Origin: Bdellovibrionota bacterium
GTDB lineage: Bacteria > Bdellovibrionota > Bdellovibrionia > Bdellovibrionales > JAEYZS01
DNA length: 64,000 bases
Assembly: GCA_963169805.1 (NCBI GenBank)
Contig: CAUJDY010000063.1
Location: forward strand, 5,479-69,478
Direction: 5' to 3'
The first letter of the stretch is position 1; each line of letters starts with the position of its first letter. Below are positions 45,199 through 51,270 of this stretch, piece after piece. The notes under the pieces are model-generated. The model was not told the DNA's origin. It searched no databases and saw only the letters and a list, made by a program, of their open reading frames with translations. The translations under genes were made by a program, and so were the position numbers.

Positions 45199-47583
45199 AT
45201 GATGAAACCAATCTATCTTGTTATTGCAGTTCTTATCTTCACCGTGGGTTGTGACAGAGGTTTACAGTTCTCAAATACAGACACTTCTAAGCCTGGTATC
45301 AATTGTATAGTTGAACCTGAGTCTCTTAGCGTACCTACTCTGGTGCAGCAGGGCCAAGGCTTCTCTATGTCGTATAATAGACAAGATGTGCAGTGGTCCC
45401 TTTCAAATGGTGCAACTGATCTTAGCTTTGAAGGATCTCAAGTTGATACAACTCTCAATGAACTTGGAACATATGTAGGAAGCGTTTCAGGTCGAAACAA
45501 CTGTAATAAAAATGATGGCCGTGAATTTGTAATTCAAGTTATAGAAAGAGTTGAAGGCCTTAGCGTTGTAATCAATAACAATGATCGATATACAAGAAAT
45601 CAAAATGTAAGCTTAAGCCTTTCTGCGGTTGGTGCAACTGAAGTTTATGTTACAAACAATTCAACATGCTCTGCAGGTGGAACATGGACTTCGTACAGCT
45701 CATCAAAGGCATGGTCTCTTGGTGAGACAAACAGACTCACACGAGTTTACGCAAAATTTAGAAATGCTCTTATTGAAACTCCTTGCATTAGCGATGACAT
45801 TACACATGATAACGTGGCTCCACTTGTACGATTTGTATCAAGTCCAGCTGCTGTCTCCAGTTCAAATAATGCAAACTTTGAATTCGCAGCTGAAGATGTA
45901 ACAAGCGGTGTAAAATCCTTTTTTTGCAAACTAGACAGTGCTTCTTATCAAATTTGCGGACTAAGAATGTCTTACTCTAATCTTTCAGAAGGTTCTCATA
46001 CAGTGTCTATCTACGCCCAAGATAATGCTGGCAACACATCTACAGAGTTAACACATTCATGGGTTGTAGACTCAATTGCTCCAACAGTTCGAATCACTCA
46101 AGCACCAGCAAGTCCTTCAAACTCTCGTAGTGCACGTTTTGCGTTTGTTGGAGATGACAATGGTGTTGCCATTACAAATTTTGAGTGTTCAGTTGATGGT
46201 TCAAACTTTCAAACATGTTCAACTCCAAAAGATTATACAAATCTATCAGAAGGTTCACATACTTTTAGAGTTCGTGGTAAAGACAGAGCTGGAAATACAT
46301 CAGGAGAAGCAAGTCATACATGGATTATCGACTCTCAAGCTCCAACAGTGATCATCACTCAGGCGCCAGCTAATCCAACAAAAGAAGTCAATGCGCACTT
46401 TGAATTTACAGCTCAAGATTCAGGACTTGGCCTTTCAACAATTAAATGTCAACTTGACGGACAAGCAGCCGTTGACTGTATAAATTCAGCAGACTACACA
46501 GCACTTCCAAACGGAATCCATACATTCCGAGTGACTGCAACTGACGTAGCAGGAAACTCAGGTTCTGCAGTTCATACTTGGGAAGTAAATGATAAAATTA
46601 CAGACCAAATTATTCCAATCACAGACAACGGTGGACGCGTAGATATTTTAATGGTTGTTGATAACTCAGAGTCTATGTTTAATGAACTTCGAGAAGAAAT
46701 CCCTTACAGATTTGATAGATTTGTAAGAGAACTTGACTCTCTCGACTACAGAATTGCAGTTACAACAACAGATGCCCGTGGAATTTTACCATACGAAGCT
46801 GGTGGATTAGCAAACCTTCTCAGACAACCAACTCCTGGTAACGGCCACGAAGTAATGCCACTACAAAAAGTCATTACTCCTAGTATGCCAAATGCAGAGA
46901 ATATTTTTATTGCGACAATCATGAGACCAGAAGCCATTTGCGTAGAAACAGGTACTCACATGTGCCCAATTACTGCTTCACCATACGAAGAACCAATTCG
47001 ATCTTCGATTTTAAGTGTGGAGAGAGCTGATACACAATTCTTCTTTAGAGACGAAGCAGATCTCCATATGATTATGATTTCAGATACAGATGAAGCTGGA
47101 GGAACTCAAACATATAGCACAGGACAACCTCTTCCAAATATTAACGAGTACAACAACCCAGTAACTCTTGTTAATAAGGTGAATCAAAAATGGCCTGGCA
47201 AAAAATTTAAAGTTCACGGTGTTTTCAATAGACCTGGCGATGGTTTTTGCCAAGGAAACACAAAACCTGGCCACTTGCTGTCACGCCTCGTGAACCTTAC
47301 ACAAGGTACTGCAGCAAGCATCTGTGATAGATACGATATGGACAGAACACAAATCTCTGCCATAGCAAATAATATCAAGAACGGTGCAACATCAAGCTAC
47401 ACACTGACATGTGAACCTAAAGATCTTAATAACGACGGTAGAATTGATGCACAAGACGTAACCGCAACATACAATCCACAACCTGCACAAACACCTGTGA
47501 TCTCTGTTTCTGGAAGAAGTATTTCATTTAACCCAAGACTTCCTACAGGAACAAGCGTTAGTCTGAGATATATTTGCAAATAA
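45199..47583 (+). CDS. exported (lipobox-like) protein with three Ig-like repeats, a vWA domain and a Ca-binding loop
   Basis: N-terminus 'VLIFTVGC'. 3 x 87-aa repeats. vWA start 'RVDILMVVDNSESM' (MIDAS DxSxS at 46660..46674) and 'MISDTDEAGG'. EF-hand/dockerin-like 'DLNNDGRIDAQD' at 47422..47457. Confidence 0.8.
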   Translation: MMKPIYLVIAVLIFTVGCDRGLQFSNTDTSKPGINCIVEPESLSVPTLVQQGQGFSMSYNRQDVQWSLSNGATDLSFEGSQVDTTLNELGTYVGSVSGRNNCNKNDGREFVIQVIERVEGLSVVINNNDRYTRNQNVSLSLSAVGATEVYVTNNSTCSAGGTWTSYSSSKAWSLGETNRLTRVYAKFRNALIETPCISDDITHDNVAPLVRFVSSPAAVSSSNNANFEFAAEDVTSGVKSFFCKLDSASYQICGLRMSYSNLSEGSHTVSIYAQDNAGNTSTELTHSWVVDSIAPTVRITQAPASPSNSRSARFAFVGDDNGVAITNFECSVDGSNFQTCSTPKDYTNLSEGSHTFRVRGKDRAGNTSGEASHTWIIDSQAPTVIITQAPANPTKEVNAHFEFTAQDSGLGLSTIKCQLDGQAAVDCINSADYTALPNGIHTFRVTATDVAGNSGSAVHTWEVNDKITDQIIPITDNGGRVDILMVVDNSESMFNELREEIPYRFDRFVRELDSLDYRIAVTTTDARGILPYEAGGLANLLRQPTPGNGHEVMPLQKVITPSMPNAENIFIATIMRPEAICVETGTHMCPITASPYEEPIRSSILSVERADTQFFFRDEADLHMIMISDTDEAGGTQTYSTGQPLPNINEYNNPVTLVNKVNQKWPGKKFKVHGVFNRPGDGFCQGNTKPGHLLSRLVNLTQGTAASICDRYDMDRTQISAIANNIKNGATSSYTLTCEPKDLNNDGRIDAQDVTATYNPQPAQTPVISVSGRSISFNPRLPTGTSVSLRYICK
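45808..46590 (+). repeat. three tandem 261-bp (87-aa) coding repeats, Ig-like surface modules
   Basis: Each unit starts D-x-x-AP-x-V and carries the pattern ...F.F...D...(F)xC.lDg....C....Y..L.eG.HTF.V.a.D.AGN......H.W.vD. Unit starts at 45808, 46069 and 46330. Confidence 0.85.
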
Positions 47584-47605
47584 ACTCTTGAACAGTTAAA
47601 AACTT

Positions 47606-50600: not shown

Positions 50601-51270
50601 AACGGAAGTTGCACATCATCCTCCTGAAATGACAGATTTTTTTAAGATTGATTTTACAAGTGGGAAAAATATTACTGTAACAGGAGATCACTATATTTTC
50701 TCTCCTGACGACAACTTTTATATTCCAGTTGAAATGATTTACGAACGGTGGAAAAGGTCTGGTGATTTTTATTTGTTAAACATCGACGGCAAGCGTGAAA
50801 AGATTCAAATGATTTATTCTTTCATGAGCGCCCAGCCTAGCTATAACTTACATGTTAAAGGTATATCAAGTGATGCGAAAAATTATGGAACTCTGGGACG
50901 TGGCCATAACTATTTTGCAAATGGTATTTTAGCACACAATATGAAGTGGGTTTGCCAAGGCGGTGCATGCTCAGGAGAAGGTTGTCCTAACTGCATGAGC
51001 ATGCCCCCTATGAGGCTTATTCTCAGCTGCGACTCTTCAGAGTTAACATGGCTATCAGTTGTATTTTTAACACCAGTCGATCAACAACCCTACACCCCAC
51101 CTGTCAACTTATCTGGAGCTGCCTGCACAAGTAACCCAGTTTGCAACTCTTCATGTGCCTCTACAGATGGATCAACCGCCAACATGGGAAGCCAATACTG
51201 CGTAACCCCCACTGGCCCTGGTACTTGTATCGGCTACCTCATTGGCATCTGCTTCTGCCCAGCCATCTAA
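47638..51270 (+). CDS. 1210-aa Cys-rich exported/anchored protein with TSP1-like and Hint (bacterial intein-like) domains
   Basis: Long uninterrupted ORF. N-terminal hydrophobic segment 'GVGLIAAIIAAALVVSAALAVSYF'. Sequence rich in Cys, Thr, Asn and Gly. Domain calls are listed separately. The start is uncertain: TTG 47638, or TTG 47671 preceded by GGAG. Confidence 0.8.
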   Translation: MFLPRNQNGVGLIAAIIAAALVVSAALAVSYFIVNQNKSSVKLSNNTNCVTIASSISDYIRKDDNAVNITNFGPALGQTQFASNLDTTIDGYDRFSFQGNRIEASQPTSGNLNIAPASVLTSPARGSVAIPDGWSFSNYLNIRNSTNRLIALASNGNFCCEDLDLSDTGCGADLYVDGGTNNPPSLTLPAQNVRVKLAINIEENGSSLCSGGRLSRLPDLKDRITTKYVARVILNENQQTALACESEGSTQIPSDTIAPYTIVSLNYTGLCDATKTSSPSACSASNEIQLTASTVVDRNWNNGVNPSCQTCLRSTIGYYTCAGLNAAELNTATDDAFNTCTAGTNSPCLLSDPGSLFLCRVGEMNWFNANPNFWEPCHSARVRDFNGNIIGDPVEIEYLRVAAGQNTDTYSRARITLRNLPERAYQFDIRAVDTKASFAGPSFCSTSDCSSPAFVVNTTNPTLTQARSLGGNVDVVQNLFDNGGTSFSVPAAMAAFGASKFQCQGGVSQFETQIQYPSLPAGAYPLGLNGSCTSTLVLPNATSRLIGTFEAQDNLCRFSAGANPTDPSGNYVIRTTFTNECNRSTPNTNSESWCYDRATPFATSINTTNGSTPTFALQHTKPCALAKLCPRIDGASPSWSTANCPATLPGWSDSRDSGCLRSTSGQYCMLGFDPCGRSFEASTAYESHLLAGSATTNKCVRSPNNDEFDPSTVLISGNMCESGWCDNNFKCVTTNANIGRNCDNSGAPGTTCDHTSDCSGSPTTCNTTYNCELPTGQVQGPVSCTLGTPCTMTNNSCDIATNRCTLTNDDCTSTPCPTAGTCRVRGQGTCQEPTNRTCSCEPGEEVFCPVANTCLVNSLAANPAGRNSNCTPLPPLPPACEWVETSRTPCSGACGQAGTLTINRTCRVVGTGAACGTCTGSSTVNGVACTSAPCATGVPVTTRAHFCFVKDTEITLANGGIAPIQDIKVGDWVTTYDEIQKKNVISQVTEVAHHPPEMTDFFKIDFTSGKNITVTGDHYIFSPDDNFYIPVEMIYERWKRSGDFYLLNIDGKREKIQMIYSFMSAQPSYNLHVKGISSDAKNYGTLGRGHNYFANGILAHNMKWVCQGGACSGEGCPNCMSMPPMRLILSCDSSELTWLSVVFLTPVDQQPYTPPVNLSGAACTSNPVCNSSCASTDGSTANMGSQYCVTPTGPGTCIGYLIGICFCPAI
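50275..50439 (+). other. thrombospondin type-1-repeat-like segment within the 1210-aa protein
   Basis: 'CEWVETSRTPCSGACGQAGTLTINRTCRVV...ACGTCTGSSTVNGVACTSAPC' fits the TSR core W...CSxxCGxGxxxRxRxC...C...C, but has only one Trp. Confidence 0.45.
50476..50940 (+). other. Hint / bacterial intein-like (BIL) domain, 155 aa
   Basis: Block A 'CFVKDTEITLANGGIAPIQDIKVGDWV', block B 'ITVTGDHYIF', blocks F/G 'YNLHV...HNYFANGILAHN'. The residue after the terminal HN is Met (50941), not Cys/Ser/Thr. Confidence 0.8.

What the first reader, a model, noticed from the sequence alone, without database searches (positions are those of the whole stretch)
45199..51270. Two-gene exported module (Ig-repeat/vWA lipoprotein plus Hint-bearing Cys-rich giant) that fits no described system
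The two genes are same-strand neighbours 54 nt apart. Gene 1 combines a lipobox-like signal, three exact 87-aa Ig-like repeats, a vWA domain with an intact MIDAS start (DNSES) and an EF-hand/dockerin-like loop (DLNNDGRIDAQD). Gene 2 is a 1210-aa protein with an N-terminal hydrophobic anchor and about 900 aa of Cys/Thr/Asn/Gly-rich sequence, ending in TSP1-like, Hint and 12-Cys tail segments. The nearest known concept is the polymorphic-toxin/BIL architecture, in which a Hint domain autoproteolytically releases the C-terminal module. Here I see no recognisable toxin fold, no downstream immunity ORF (a RAYT unit sits there instead) and no dedicated secretion genes. My inference is a contact/adhesion apparatus that sheds or delivers a disulfide-rich peptide.
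Basis: partly seen in the sequence, partly recalled or inferred. Interest (0 to 1): 0.8.

Follow-up and report, generated by a model that had tools for sequence, protein, structure and literature searches.

The report
MIDAS adhesin beside giant intein-bearing pilin
The two neighbouring genes are real but probably not a unit: one is a known type of metal-dependent surface adhesin of predatory Bdellovibrio-like bacteria, and the other is a rare, 1,210-residue, cysteine-rich protein that starts like a type IV pilus subunit and carries a self-cleaving intein-like domain near its end.

Summary
Both ORFs exist as described: 45199-47583 and 47638-51270, 54 nt apart.

**Gene 1** fits a described kind. 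It is a lipobox protein with four Ig-like domains and a vWA/MIDAS head (DNSES), related to the Bdellovibrio Bd0875/Bd1483 adhesins. The family is widespread in Bdellovibrionota.

**Gene 2** is rare. It belongs to a family of about 27 clusters among 1.84 billion representatives.
The "hydrophobic anchor" is a type IV prepilin-type N-terminus: leader MFLPRNQNG, then a hydrophobic helix. Ten homologues keep Glu5, several with the full G|F(S/G)LIE motif; the window protein has Ala5, as tip pseudopilins do.
- The Hint domain (947-1101) is an A-type bacterial intein-like (BIL) domain with C947, TGDH and HN|MK. Its closest solved relative is Tetrahymena BIL2.
- Only 2 of 27 family members carry a Hint domain. 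The 12-Cys tail is not conserved.

**The pairing is not a conserved module.**
- The syntenic 54% orthologue of gene 1 has a DDAH gene where gene 2 sits.
- None of 79 loci with a gene 1-type domain has a gene 2 relative nearby.
- Three gene 2 relatives have no MIDAS neighbour.
- A terminator-like hairpin separates the two genes.

The most likely reading is two independent surface proteins. Gene 2 would be a new variant of modular pilin that autoprocesses its C-terminus.

The parts
45199..47583 (+). Gene 1: 794-aa lipoprotein adhesin with Ig-like stalk domains and a C-terminal vWA/MIDAS head
   Evidence: ORF. NCBIfam OmpL47-type barrel domain E 6e-24 and MIDAS family adhesin NF052240 E 9e-22. 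254 homologues. AlphaFold model with mean pLDDT 78.8.
45199..45252 (+). Signal peptide with lipobox (MMKPIYLVIAVLIFTVG-C18)
   Evidence: Read from the sequence. The same feature is described for Bd0875/Bd1483 (PMC11003981).
45556..46596 (+). Four Ig-like beta-sandwich domains (aa 120-466). The last three are the 87-aa-period repeats (aa 206-466, 45814-46596).
   Evidence: Pfam Big_13 E 1.4e-13. The repeats are 35-47% identical to one another. pLDDT exceeds 90 across 120-466. Foldseek top hits are tandem Ig/FN3 adhesins such as GhpA and SiiE.
46621..47403 (+). vWA/MIDAS domain (aa 475-735). The DNSES motif lies at 46660-46674.
   Evidence: NF052240 match over 475-794. Family alignment shows D488, S492, T573 and D629 conserved. 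The family profile hits the GBS104 pilus-tip adhesin vWA domain 3TXA at E 2e-4. The model is alpha/beta in this region.
47422..47580 (+). C-terminal small beta-rich domain with a conserved D-x-N-x-D-G loop (DLNNDGRIDAQD, 47422-47457)
   Evidence: C738, P740, D742 and G747 are invariant in 17 relatives. Model strands 755-793 pack with 467-473. Dockerin_1 is only E 0.13.
47606..47643 (+). Terminator-like hairpin (11 bp, 6 GC) plus T-run. Its 3' arm (TAAGGGGG) is also the Shine-Dalgarno sequence of gene 2, and the T-run contains the TTG start.
   Evidence: Terminator scan. RNA fold of -22.1 kcal/mol, z -3.9. A comparable hairpin is present in L004 and after the gene 1 orthologue in L001, which lacks gene 2.
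47638..51270 (+). Gene 2: 1210-aa, 71-Cys, type IV pilin-like giant protein with a C-terminal BIL domain
   Evidence: ORF. Only 2 hits in the word-indexed search. 27 relatives in the exhaustive HMMER search.
47638..47739 (+). Prepilin-type (class III) signal: leader MFLPRNQNG (G9 at -1), then hydrophobic helix VGLIAAIIAAALVVSAALAVSYFIV. Position +5 is Ala instead of Glu.
   Evidence: G9 is invariant in the alignment of 19 N-termini, and ten homologues have Glu at +5 (eight begin G|F). TIGR02532 hits 4 relatives and PF07963 hits 2. The family N-terminal profile hits type IV pilins PilE1 (8PFB, E 4e-4) and geopilin (9EGP, E 6e-4). P0140, whose N-terminus reads MFKNQKG|IGLIE, is 34% identical from residue 1 (E 2e-41).
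47638..49842 (+). Conserved family core (aa 1-735), including an FN3/Ig-like segment around aa 380-450
   Evidence: 34% identity to P0002 over 1-735. Profile hits run to position about 800-900 in 15 proteins. Weak hhalign match to the gene 1 Ig repeats (E 0.004) and to FN3 chains in the PDB. The AlphaFold model failed (pLDDT 31).
49843..50475 (+). Hypervariable Cys-rich region (aa 736-946, 26 Cys, CX5-8C spacing, TSP1-like pattern at 880-934)
   Evidence: Composition and Cys spacing. No profile match. Alignment with relatives is poor beyond aa 735.
50476..50940 (+). A-type BIL (Hint) domain, aa 947-1101: C947, T1015-G-D-H1018, H1100-N1101, followed by M1102-K1103
   Evidence: Pfam Hint E 2e-10, TIGR01445 E 7e-6. 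The best solved relative is the Tetrahymena BUBL BIL2 domain 6TMM/6Y75 (E 8e-8, full length). 39% identity to the Hint domain in L009.
50941..51267 (+). 109-aa tail with 12 Cys, of unknown fold
   Evidence: No Pfam or NCBIfam hit. No homologue found. GC3 is 0.49 against 0.29-0.34 for the rest of the gene.
51275..52126 (-). RAYT unit, not part of the system: RAYT gene 51330-52073 flanked by 50-nt inverted repeats 51275-51324 and 52077-52126
   Evidence: NF047646 E 2e-18. The inverted repeat is 98% complementary. The right arm replaces the native C-terminal codons of the AcrB-like gene.

Best explanation
The locus holds two independent surface-protein genes of a Bdellovibrio-like bacterium. They are adjacent only in this lineage.

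**Gene 1** is an outer-membrane lipoprotein adhesin. A lipid anchor and four Ig-like spacer domains hold out a vWA head. The MIDAS site of that head (DNSES...T...D) binds a ligand carboxylate through a divalent cation, as shown for Bd0875.

**Gene 2** is a giant modular type IV pilin-like protein. The proposed steps are these.
1. Its N-terminus is a class III signal. Cleavage after Gly9 by the prepilin peptidase is inferred.
2. The hydrophobic helix that follows would insert it into a type IV filament. Because Glu5 is replaced by Ala, as in GspK/PilX-type subunits, it would most plausibly sit as the terminal (tip) subunit. This is also inferred.
3. In that position it would display about 900 residues of disulfide-bonded, partly hypervariable sequence.
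4. Near the C-terminus an A-type BIL domain is predicted to make a thioester at Cys947 (N-to-S acyl shift) and to cleave after Asn1101 by succinimide formation. The protein would then be matured by loss of the BIL domain and/or the 109-residue tail. This step is inferred from intact catalytic motifs.
For: **Gene 1**
- Family and domain matches.
- Conserved MIDAS residues in 17 relatives.
- AlphaFold model with Ig x4, a vWA domain and a small beta domain.
- PDB vWA adhesin hit.
- Function of the family in PMC11003981.

**Gene 2, pilin-like N-terminus**
- The exhaustive search found 27 relatives.
- Their aligned N-termini share an invariant Gly. Ten have Glu at +5, and eight begin G|F, several with the full G|F(S/G)LIE motif.
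- TIGR02532, PF07963, ComGE, GspI/J/H and PilV models hit relatives.
- The family profile hits solved type IV pilins.
- A direct pairwise alignment from residue 1 to an E5-bearing homologue gives E 2e-41.
- The N-terminal 60 residues are more conserved (53% identity) than the whole protein (35%).

**Gene 2, BIL domain**
-. The mechanism of BIL2 and of A-type BILs is described in PMC8616854 and PMC7765530.
- There are 70 Cys plus the catalytic C947, which fits an oxidised extracytoplasmic protein.

**Independence of the two genes**
-.
- A hairpin lies between the genes.
Against: - The window protein itself matches no pilin profile. It lacks Phe1 and Glu5.
- An A-L-A|V-S site at residues 26-29 could instead be a signal peptidase I site.
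- No pilus or type II secretion genes lie next to gene 2 or next to three relatives.
- No usable structure model exists for gene 2, so a pilin fold is not shown.
- Adjacency with gene 1 is kept in a second lineage, L004, whose flanks are only about 78% identical.
- An unread 103-aa gene fragment ends 35 nt upstream of the relative P0002. It could be a gene 1 homologue.
- BIL activity is inferred from motifs only.
Confidence: 0.55

Rival explanations
1. One reading: the two genes form one contact or adhesion apparatus. The MIDAS lipoprotein would dock to or present the giant protein, and the Hint domain would shed or deliver the 12-Cys tail.
For: - The genes are on the same strand, 54 nt apart.
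- The pair is kept in L004 although the flanks are only about 78% identical.
- Both are exported.
- MIDAS domains bind protein ligands (PMC11003981).
- vWA proteins (PilY1) cooperate with minor pilins at pilus tips. This rests on established knowledge and is cited in PMC8179133.
Against: - Gene 1 orthologues and paralogues occur without gene 2 at the syntenic site and at 79 other loci.
- Three gene 2 relatives have no MIDAS neighbour.
- A terminator-like hairpin follows gene 1.
- The tail is not conserved.
Confidence: 0.15
2. Gene 2 is a polymorphic-toxin-like effector. A conserved N-terminal delivery part carries a HINT releasing peptidase that frees a variable C-terminal toxin (the 12-Cys tail) into prey or competitors.
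For: - The architecture matches the polymorphic-toxin template: trafficking signal, stalk, HINT, C-terminal module (PMC3482391).
- Family C-termini are hypervariable.
- The tail has deviant GC3, suggesting cassette exchange.
- Metagenome contigs break or become mosaic at this gene.
Against: - No toxin family match.
- No immunity ORF.
- PT-HINT is only E 0.1, whereas the domain matches A-type BIL/intein models better.
- The relative in L009 has an 8-residue tail.
- 25 of 27 family members lack a Hint domain.
Confidence: 0.15
3. Gene 2 is simply a membrane-anchored or Sec-secreted periplasmic or surface protein. The pilin-like N-terminus would be an evolutionary relic used as a signal-anchor, or cleaved at ALA|VS, and the protein would never be assembled into a filament.
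For: - Loss of Phe1 and Glu5 in the window protein and its closest relatives.
- No pilin profile hit for the window protein.
- No neighbouring pilus genes.
- The protein is very large for passage through a secretin.
Against: - The invariant Gly and the above-average conservation of the N-terminal helix imply a constrained function.
- E5-less pilins (GspK/PilX) and bulky modular pilins are assembled at filament tips (PMC8179133).
Confidence: 0.25
4. The BIL domain acts as a splicing or ligating element rather than a release protease. It would excise itself and join residues 1-946 to the tail, possibly through the conserved +2 lysine as an isopeptide.
For: - The closest solved relative, BIL2, forms Lys isopeptide bonds (PMC8616854).
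- All five BIL domains of the family end HN-x-K.
- The flanks on both sides have the same Cys-rich character.
- P0132 has three BILs interspersed in Cys-rich sequence, like inteins in a host protein.
Against: - There is no +1 Cys/Ser/Thr.
- A review states that A-type BILs cleave but do not ligate (PMC7765530).
- The L009 copy has almost nothing to ligate.
Confidence: 0.15

Closest known systems
Bd0875 / Bd1483 lipobox MIDAS adhesins of Bdellovibrio bacteriovorus (NCBIfam NF052240; PMC11003981)
   Same: Gene 1 shares the lipobox and a vWA domain with an intact DxSxS MIDAS motif. The vWA domain is inserted in a small beta-rich domain built from flanking segments. The taxonomic range is the same (Bdellovibrionota).
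   Different: Gene 1 scores 78 bits against an equivalog cutoff of 700, so it is a distant paralogue. It also carries about 450 extra N-terminal residues (a variable domain plus four Ig-like domains) that Bd0875 (378 aa) lacks. A role in prey invasion has not been tested.
Modular type IV pilins (Streptococcus sanguinis PilB/PilC; GspK/PilX-type E5-less tip subunits; PMC8179133)
   Same: Gene 2 has a short leader ending in Gly, a hydrophobic alpha1N helix and a large non-pilin module grafted C-terminally. Lack of Glu5 is shared with tip pseudopilins. Autoprocessing modules (peptidase S74) are already listed among modular pilin architectures.
   Different: Gene 2 is larger than any example mentioned there (1210 aa against up to 860). 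Its module has no known domain and about 70 Cys. A Hint/BIL domain was not found among the architectures held in that paper's supplements or in a literature search. No pilus genes are adjacent. The window protein itself fails the pilin profiles.
A-type bacterial intein-like (BIL) domains; Tetrahymena BUBL BIL2 (PDB 6TMM/6Y75)
   Same: Cys1, the TxxH block, C-terminal His-Asn and no +1 nucleophile are all shared. The domain sits in a hypervariable part of a non-conserved secreted protein. The full-length sequence match is E 8e-8.
   Different: The host protein is a pilin-like giant, not a ubiquitin-like array or an FhaB/MafB-type protein. A conserved Lys at +2 is specific to this small family. 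Activity is untested.
Polymorphic toxin systems with a HINT releasing peptidase (PMC3482391)
   Same: Both have an N-terminal export signal, a long stalk, a HINT domain just before a variable C-terminal module, and hypervariable C-termini within the family.
   Different: Gene 2 has no recognisable toxin domain, no immunity gene and no RHS or filamentous-haemagglutinin repeats. Most family members have no HINT domain.
PilY1 (vWA-containing) plus minor-pilin tip complex of type IVa pili
   Same: A vWA/MIDAS protein encoded next to an E5-less pilin-like protein recalls the PilY1/PilX arrangement.
   Different: Gene 1 is a lipoprotein with no PilY1 beta-propeller. No other minor pilins are present. 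The adjacency is not conserved.

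Membership tests
Bdellovibrio-type lipobox MIDAS adhesin (gene 1) | N-terminal signal peptide with lipobox cysteine | tested here: met
   MMKPIYLVIAVLIFTVG-C18.
Bdellovibrio-type lipobox MIDAS adhesin (gene 1) | vWA fold with a DxSxS...T...D MIDAS motif | tested here: met
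   D488-N-S-E-S492. T573 and D629 are invariant in 17 relatives. The model is alpha/beta at pLDDT 70-90. PDB vWA adhesin hit at E 2e-4.
Bdellovibrio-type lipobox MIDAS adhesin (gene 1) | [quoted passage not shown] | tested here: met
   Model strands 467-473 and 755-793 flank the vWA domain. The feature is described in PMC11003981.
Bdellovibrio-type lipobox MIDAS adhesin (gene 1) | Score above the NF052240 equivalog cutoff (that is, an orthologue of Bd0875) | tested here: not met
   77.8 bits against a cutoff of 700. Gene 1 is related, not equivalent.
A-type BIL / Hint domain (gene 2, aa 947-1101) | Hint profile match above the curated threshold | tested here: met
   PF01079 at 41 bits against 29.7. 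TIGR01445 at 26.9 against 24.5.
A-type BIL / Hint domain (gene 2, aa 947-1101) | Catalytic residues: N-terminal Cys, TxxH block, C-terminal His-Asn, and no Cys/Ser/Thr at +1 | tested here: met
   C947, T1015-G-D-H1018, H1100-N1101 and M1102. Aligned full length to BIL2.
A-type BIL / Hint domain (gene 2, aa 947-1101) | Autocleavage or ligation activity | not testable with these tools
   Requires expression and mass spectrometry.
Type IV pilin / modular pilin (gene 2) | Short hydrophilic leader ending in Gly, followed by about 20 hydrophobic residues | tested here: met
   MFLPRNQNG|VGLIAAIIAAALVVSAALAVSYFIV. The Gly is invariant in 19 aligned N-termini.
Type IV pilin / modular pilin (gene 2) | Glu at +5 (and Phe/Met at +1) | tested here: not met
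   Ala14 and Val10 in the window protein. Glu5 is present in 10 homologues, and eight of those begin G|F. E5-less pilins exist (GspK/PilX), which is established knowledge.
Type IV pilin / modular pilin (gene 2) | Match to a prepilin N-terminal profile (TIGR02532 / PF07963) | tested here: inconclusive
   The window protein has no hit. Four and two homologues respectively do hit. The family profile hits solved pilins at E 4e-4.
Type IV pilin / modular pilin (gene 2) | Pilin fold of the N-terminal module; assembly into a filament | not testable with these tools
   The AlphaFold model had pLDDT 31 with the permitted 2-sequence alignment.
Type IV pilin / modular pilin (gene 2) | Linkage to pilus or type II secretion genes | tested here: not met
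   None in the window parts examined or next to P0132, P0133 and P0142.
Polymorphic toxin system (gene 2) | Recognisable C-terminal toxin domain and adjacent immunity gene | tested here: not met
   No Pfam or NCBIfam hit for the tail. No downstream ORF before the RAYT unit.
Conserved two-gene module (gene 1 + gene 2) | Co-occurrence as neighbours in relatives | tested here: not met
   Adjacent only in L004. Absent in L001-L003, L005-L008, 79 genome loci and next to 3 gene 2 relatives.

The most novel reading that the evidence does not exclude
Gene 2 would be a pilus-tip 'chemical harpoon'. It would be an E5-less giant pilin whose BIL domain converts the C-terminus of the displayed 946-residue module into a thioester. 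That thioester would be resolved by a lysine, either the conserved +2 Lys or a lysine or amine on the prey surface. The result would be a covalent isopeptide link, as Tetrahymena BIL2 makes with ubiquitin-like domains. This would be the first intein-like ligase used for bacterial adhesion or predation. The MIDAS neighbour could then be a lineage-specific partner.
Probability: 0.08. Interest if true: 0.85.

Novelty: new variant of a known kind. Interest (0 to 1): 0.5.

Why it matters
Type IV pili are required for prey entry by Bdellovibrio-like predators, yet what the pili present at their tips is largely unknown.

Gene 2 belongs to a small family, about 27 clusters among 1.84 billion representatives, of 0.9-1.75 thousand-residue, disulfide-rich, hypervariable pilin-like proteins. 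Such a family would be a candidate for prey recognition.

An intein-like autoprocessing domain on such a subunit would add a new post-translational trick to pilus biology. It would also give BIL domains, whose bacterial function has been unclear since 2003, a concrete and testable host protein.

The result also cautions that adjacency to a MIDAS adhesin does not, on present evidence, indicate a functional unit.

Tried and rejected
**Searches that found nothing**
- The word-indexed homologue search with gene 2 gave only itself and P0002. With the Hint domain plus tail it gave only P0123.
- Pattern scans with the gene 2 alignment found no relatives in GTDB genomes, JGI metagenomes or viral contigs. 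A scan with the Hint alignment also found none.

**Structure**
The model was discarded and no fold search was run on it.
- The Foldseek search with the gene 1 model returned only generic tandem Ig/FN3 matches.

**Profile tests of gene 2 segments**
- Pfam PilX_N, N_methyl and TSP_1 were looked for in gene 2 segments at E<=10 and not found.
- NCBIfam gave nothing for the core, the Cys-rich region or the tail.
- No internal sequence repeats in gene 2 were found by self-BLAST.

**Other ideas set aside**
- Foreign origin of gene 2 from its high GC (0.45) was rejected. GC3 (0.35) equals that of its neighbours, so the excess comes from amino-acid composition.
- Positive selection was rejected. dN/dS is about 0.06-0.08 for both genes against L004.
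- A conserved downstream partner of gene 1-type adhesins was sought in 77 loci and none was found.
- The organism's name could not be obtained. The assignment to Bdellovibrionota rests on the distribution of the gene 1 family.

Full report
**1. Observation**

The window carries two same-strand ORFs, 45199-47583 (794 aa) and 47638-51270 (1210 aa). The second starts at a TTG five bases after AAGGGGG. The gap between them is 54 nt.

Flanking genes are housekeeping genes. Upstream lie TrpS/TyrS-type synthetase, HD protein, EamA, Zip and HGLS genes. Downstream lie a RAYT gene, an AcrB-type pump, an outer-membrane factor, a DinB-type polymerase and a methyltransferase.

The raised G+C of gene 2 (0.45 against about 0.38) comes from second codon positions. 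GC3 is 0.35, like its neighbours, so composition does not mark the gene as foreign.

**2. Gene 1**

Profiles place residues about 200-465 in OmpL47/Big_13-type Ig-like domains. Residues 475-794 fall in NCBIfam NF052240 'MIDAS family adhesin' (E 9e-22), at 78 bits against an equivalog cutoff of 700.

That family was defined on Bdellovibrio Bd0875/Bd1483. These are lipobox proteins with a vWA/MIDAS domain inserted in a small beta-rich domain. Bd0875 sits at the predator-prey junction and needs its DxSxS aspartate (PMC11003981).

Gene 1 has these features.
- A lipobox (..FTVG-C18).
- The motif D488-N-S-E-S492.
- Conserved T573 and D629.
- A conserved D-x-N-x-D-G loop.

An AlphaFold model (17-sequence alignment, mean pLDDT 78.8) shows four Ig-like domains at 120-466 with pLDDT above 90. 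It also shows an alpha/beta domain at 475-735, and strands 467-473 plus 755-793 forming the small domain. The family profile's best solved match is the vWA domain of the streptococcal pilus-tip adhesin GBS104 (E 2e-4).

The 'three exact 87-aa repeats' are exact only in period. They are 35-47% identical.

The family is large, with 254 hits. In species-representative genomes it is almost confined to Bdellovibrionota, with a few Myxococcota. Lengths range from about 340 aa (Bd0875-like) to about 1000 aa (with Ig stalks).

**3. Gene 2, N-terminus and family**

The word-indexed search found only the protein itself and one 902-aa metagenomic relative, P0002. P0002 is 34% identical over residues 1-735 and has no Hint domain.

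An exhaustive HMMER search of 1.84 billion representatives, using a profile of the two sequences, found 27 proteins at E<=1e-3 and 19 at E<=1e-30. Most are 0.9-1.75 thousand residues long with 4.5-8.5% Cys.

Aligning their N-termini shows an invariant Gly (Gly9 in the window protein) after a short basic or polar leader. A hydrophobic helix of about 25 residues follows, then an invariant Cys49.

Ten members have Glu at +5, and eight of them begin G|F, several with the full type IV prepilin motif. Examples are WPHG|FSLIEIV, KTKG|FGLIEVL and NQKG|IGLIEAI.

Supporting profile evidence is as follows.
- TIGR02532 hits four members and PF07963 hits two.
- ComGE, XpsI, GspI/J/H and PilV models hit others.
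- The family N-terminal profile finds solved type IV pilins first: PilE1 8PFB at E 4e-4, with mature residue 1 aligned just after the Gly, and geopilins at E 6e-4 and 3e-3.
- P0140 carries Glu5 and aligns pairwise with the window protein from residue 1 (E 2e-41). It reads MFKNQKG|IGLIEAIIAAALVV against MFLPRNQNG|VGLIAAIIAAALVV.

The 'hydrophobic anchor' is therefore a prepilin-type signal in which Phe1 and Glu5 have been replaced. Tip pseudopilins of the GspK/PilX type have the same state. This comparison rests on established knowledge and on the discussion in PMC8179133.

The window protein alone matches no pilin profile. No usable structure model could be made (pLDDT 31). Membership in the pilin superfamily therefore rests on homology to relatives.

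**4. Gene 2, body**

Residues 1-735 are the conserved core. Weak profile signals suggest an FN3/Ig-like segment around 380-450.

Residues 736-946 hold 26 Cys at 5-8-residue spacing. They align poorly even with P0002. The TSP1 resemblance is a pattern only, with no profile hit.

The total of 71 Cys is 70 plus the Hint nucleophile. This fits an oxidised extracytoplasmic protein.

**5. Gene 2, Hint domain**

Pfam Hint (E 2e-10) and the intein N-terminal model both pass their thresholds. The residues are C947, T1015-G-D-H1018 and H1100-N1101, followed by M1102-K1103.

The best solved relative is the BIL2 domain of the Tetrahymena BUBL locus (6TMM/6Y75, E 8e-8 over the full length). BIL2 is an A-type bacterial-intein-like domain that conjugates its upstream domain to lysines (PMC8616854).

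A-type BILs have His-Asn but no +1 nucleophile. They lie in hypervariable parts of non-conserved bacterial proteins and autocleave at either end (PMC7765530).

Only two of the 27 family members have Hint domains: the window protein, and P0132, which has three in tandem. A further copy (39% identity) closes a Cys-rich ORF in L009-L011 and is followed by only eight residues. All five copies end HN-x-K.

The 109-residue, 12-Cys tail has no homologue and no profile hit. Its GC3 is deviant at 0.49.

**6. Is it a two-gene module?**

*Evidence for the pairing.*
- A metagenomic contig, L004, has gene 1 at 95% and gene 2 at 86% amino-acid identity in the same arrangement. Its flanks are about 78% identical at the nucleotide level.

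*Evidence against the pairing.*
- The syntenic locus of a 54% orthologue reads EamA-...-Zip-HGLS-gene 1-DDAH-AcrB. It has neither gene 2 nor the RAYT gene.
- Loci of three more gene 1 relatives have unrelated downstream genes.
- None of 79 genome loci with a gene 1-type MIDAS domain has a gene 2 relative within 6 kb. There is also no recurrent downstream partner.
- The gene 2 relatives P0132, P0133 and P0142 have no MIDAS or Ig-repeat neighbour.
- An 11-bp GC-rich hairpin followed by a T-run lies between the genes (z -3.9). A comparable hairpin follows the orthologue that has no gene 2.
- In the window, the 3' arm of the hairpin is the ribosome-binding site of gene 2. A sigma-70-like site (TTGAAC-18-TATACT, 47588-47617) could start a transcript inside the hairpin. 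That last point is consensus matching only.

*One gap.* The contig of P0002 has an unread 103-aa gene fragment ending 35 nt upstream.

**7. Mechanism, with shown and inferred steps**

*Shown.*
- Domain content, motifs, family membership of gene 1 and homology of gene 2 to prepilin-bearing proteins.
- Intact BIL catalytic residues.
- Lack of conserved pairing.

*Inferred.*
- Gene 1 acts as a lipid-anchored, stalked MIDAS adhesin.
- Gene 2 is cleaved after Gly9 and displayed on a type IV filament, most plausibly at the tip because Glu5 is absent and the module is bulky.
- The BIL domain forms a thioester at C947 and cleaves after N1101, removing itself and/or the tail.

Whether the outcome is release, splicing or lysine ligation cannot be decided here.

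**8. Comparison with what is known, and novelty**

Gene 1 is a new member of a known kind. Gene 2 combines three known ideas: modular pilin, BIL autoprocessing and a hypervariable Cys-rich surface protein.

I could not find this arrangement described. No Hint or intein entry appears in the held supplements of the modular-pilin survey. No paper holds both 'minor pilin' and 'Hint domain'.

I rate it a new variant of a known kind. Interest is moderate because the pilin assignment is indirect and function is untested.

**9. Side observations**

- The RAYT gene lies between 50-nt inverted repeats. The right arm supplies the last codons of the AcrB-like gene.
- A Y1-transposase-like gene also follows P0132.
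- Identity to L004 is mosaic, with 97-100% in the MIDAS half of gene 1.
- A second metagenome contig with identical gene 1 ends 25 nt after its stop.

Noticed in passing
window 51275-52126: The RAYT gene (51330-52073, minus strand) is bracketed by 50-nt inverted repeats (51275-51324 and 52077-52126, 98% complementary). The right arm encodes the last five codons and the stop of the AcrB-like gene: ...SKKVPGHF* here against ...NKKSEKHLLHTKNSAT* in the relative L001. The unit therefore inserted into the 3' end of the efflux gene. The left arm starts 5 nt after the gene 2 stop codon.
   Followed up: partly
contig of P0132 (JGI 3300050046; no DNA held), gene 136 nt downstream: A Y1_Tnp-like (RAYT-type) gene also lies immediately downstream of the gene 2 relative P0132. 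Two of the four examined gene 2 family contexts thus have such a gene at the 3' end. This could be coincidence or a recombination hotspot.
   Followed up: no
window 44427-49437 vs L004: Nucleotide identity is mosaic. It is about 70-85% in most 150-nt windows. It rises to 97-100% across the MIDAS half of gene 1 (46377-47577) and to 99% in gene 2 codons 201-250 (93% in codons 251-300). This indicates either recent recombination between diverged lineages or a chimeric metagenome contig.
   Followed up: partly
L091 (ERR10643333), end of contig: A contig with a gene 1 encoding an identical protein and the same upstream genes stops 25 nt after the gene 1 stop, exactly where gene 2 would begin. This would fit strain variation at gene 2 breaking the assembly.
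   Followed up: no
window 47588-47650: The terminator-like hairpin after gene 1 sequesters the Shine-Dalgarno sequence of gene 2, and its U-run contains the TTG start. A sigma-70-like site (TTGAAC-18-TATACT) just upstream could start a transcript lacking the 5' arm. This may be a device for separate or conditional expression of gene 2.
   Followed up: partly
P0132 (1755 aa), L009:590-1081, window 50476-50946: All five BIL domains of this family are followed by x-Lys (HN-MK, HN-VK, HN-NK, HN-AK, HN-NK). P0132 carries three BIL domains in tandem, separated by Cys-rich segments, like a polyprotein.
   Followed up: partly
P0004 and P0017 (gene 1 relatives): The MIDAS DxSxS motif is DNTSS in the syntenic 54% orthologue. 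In P0017 it is degenerate (NTRNS, with the Asp lost). Metal-dependent binding may therefore not be retained in all close relatives.
   Followed up: no
L092 9953-15848: Convergent with the gene 2 relative P0133 lie a 1074-aa protein without Pfam hits and an 893-aa bpMoxR/AAA_5 ATPase. MoxR ATPases usually partner vWA proteins.
   Followed up: no
window 26632-30993 and 36923-39979: Four large ORFs (785, 667, 357 and 608 aa) have no Pfam match at E<=1e-5. They lie close to an SLT transglycosylase gene, an ECF sigma factor gene and an M23 peptidase gene.
   Followed up: no
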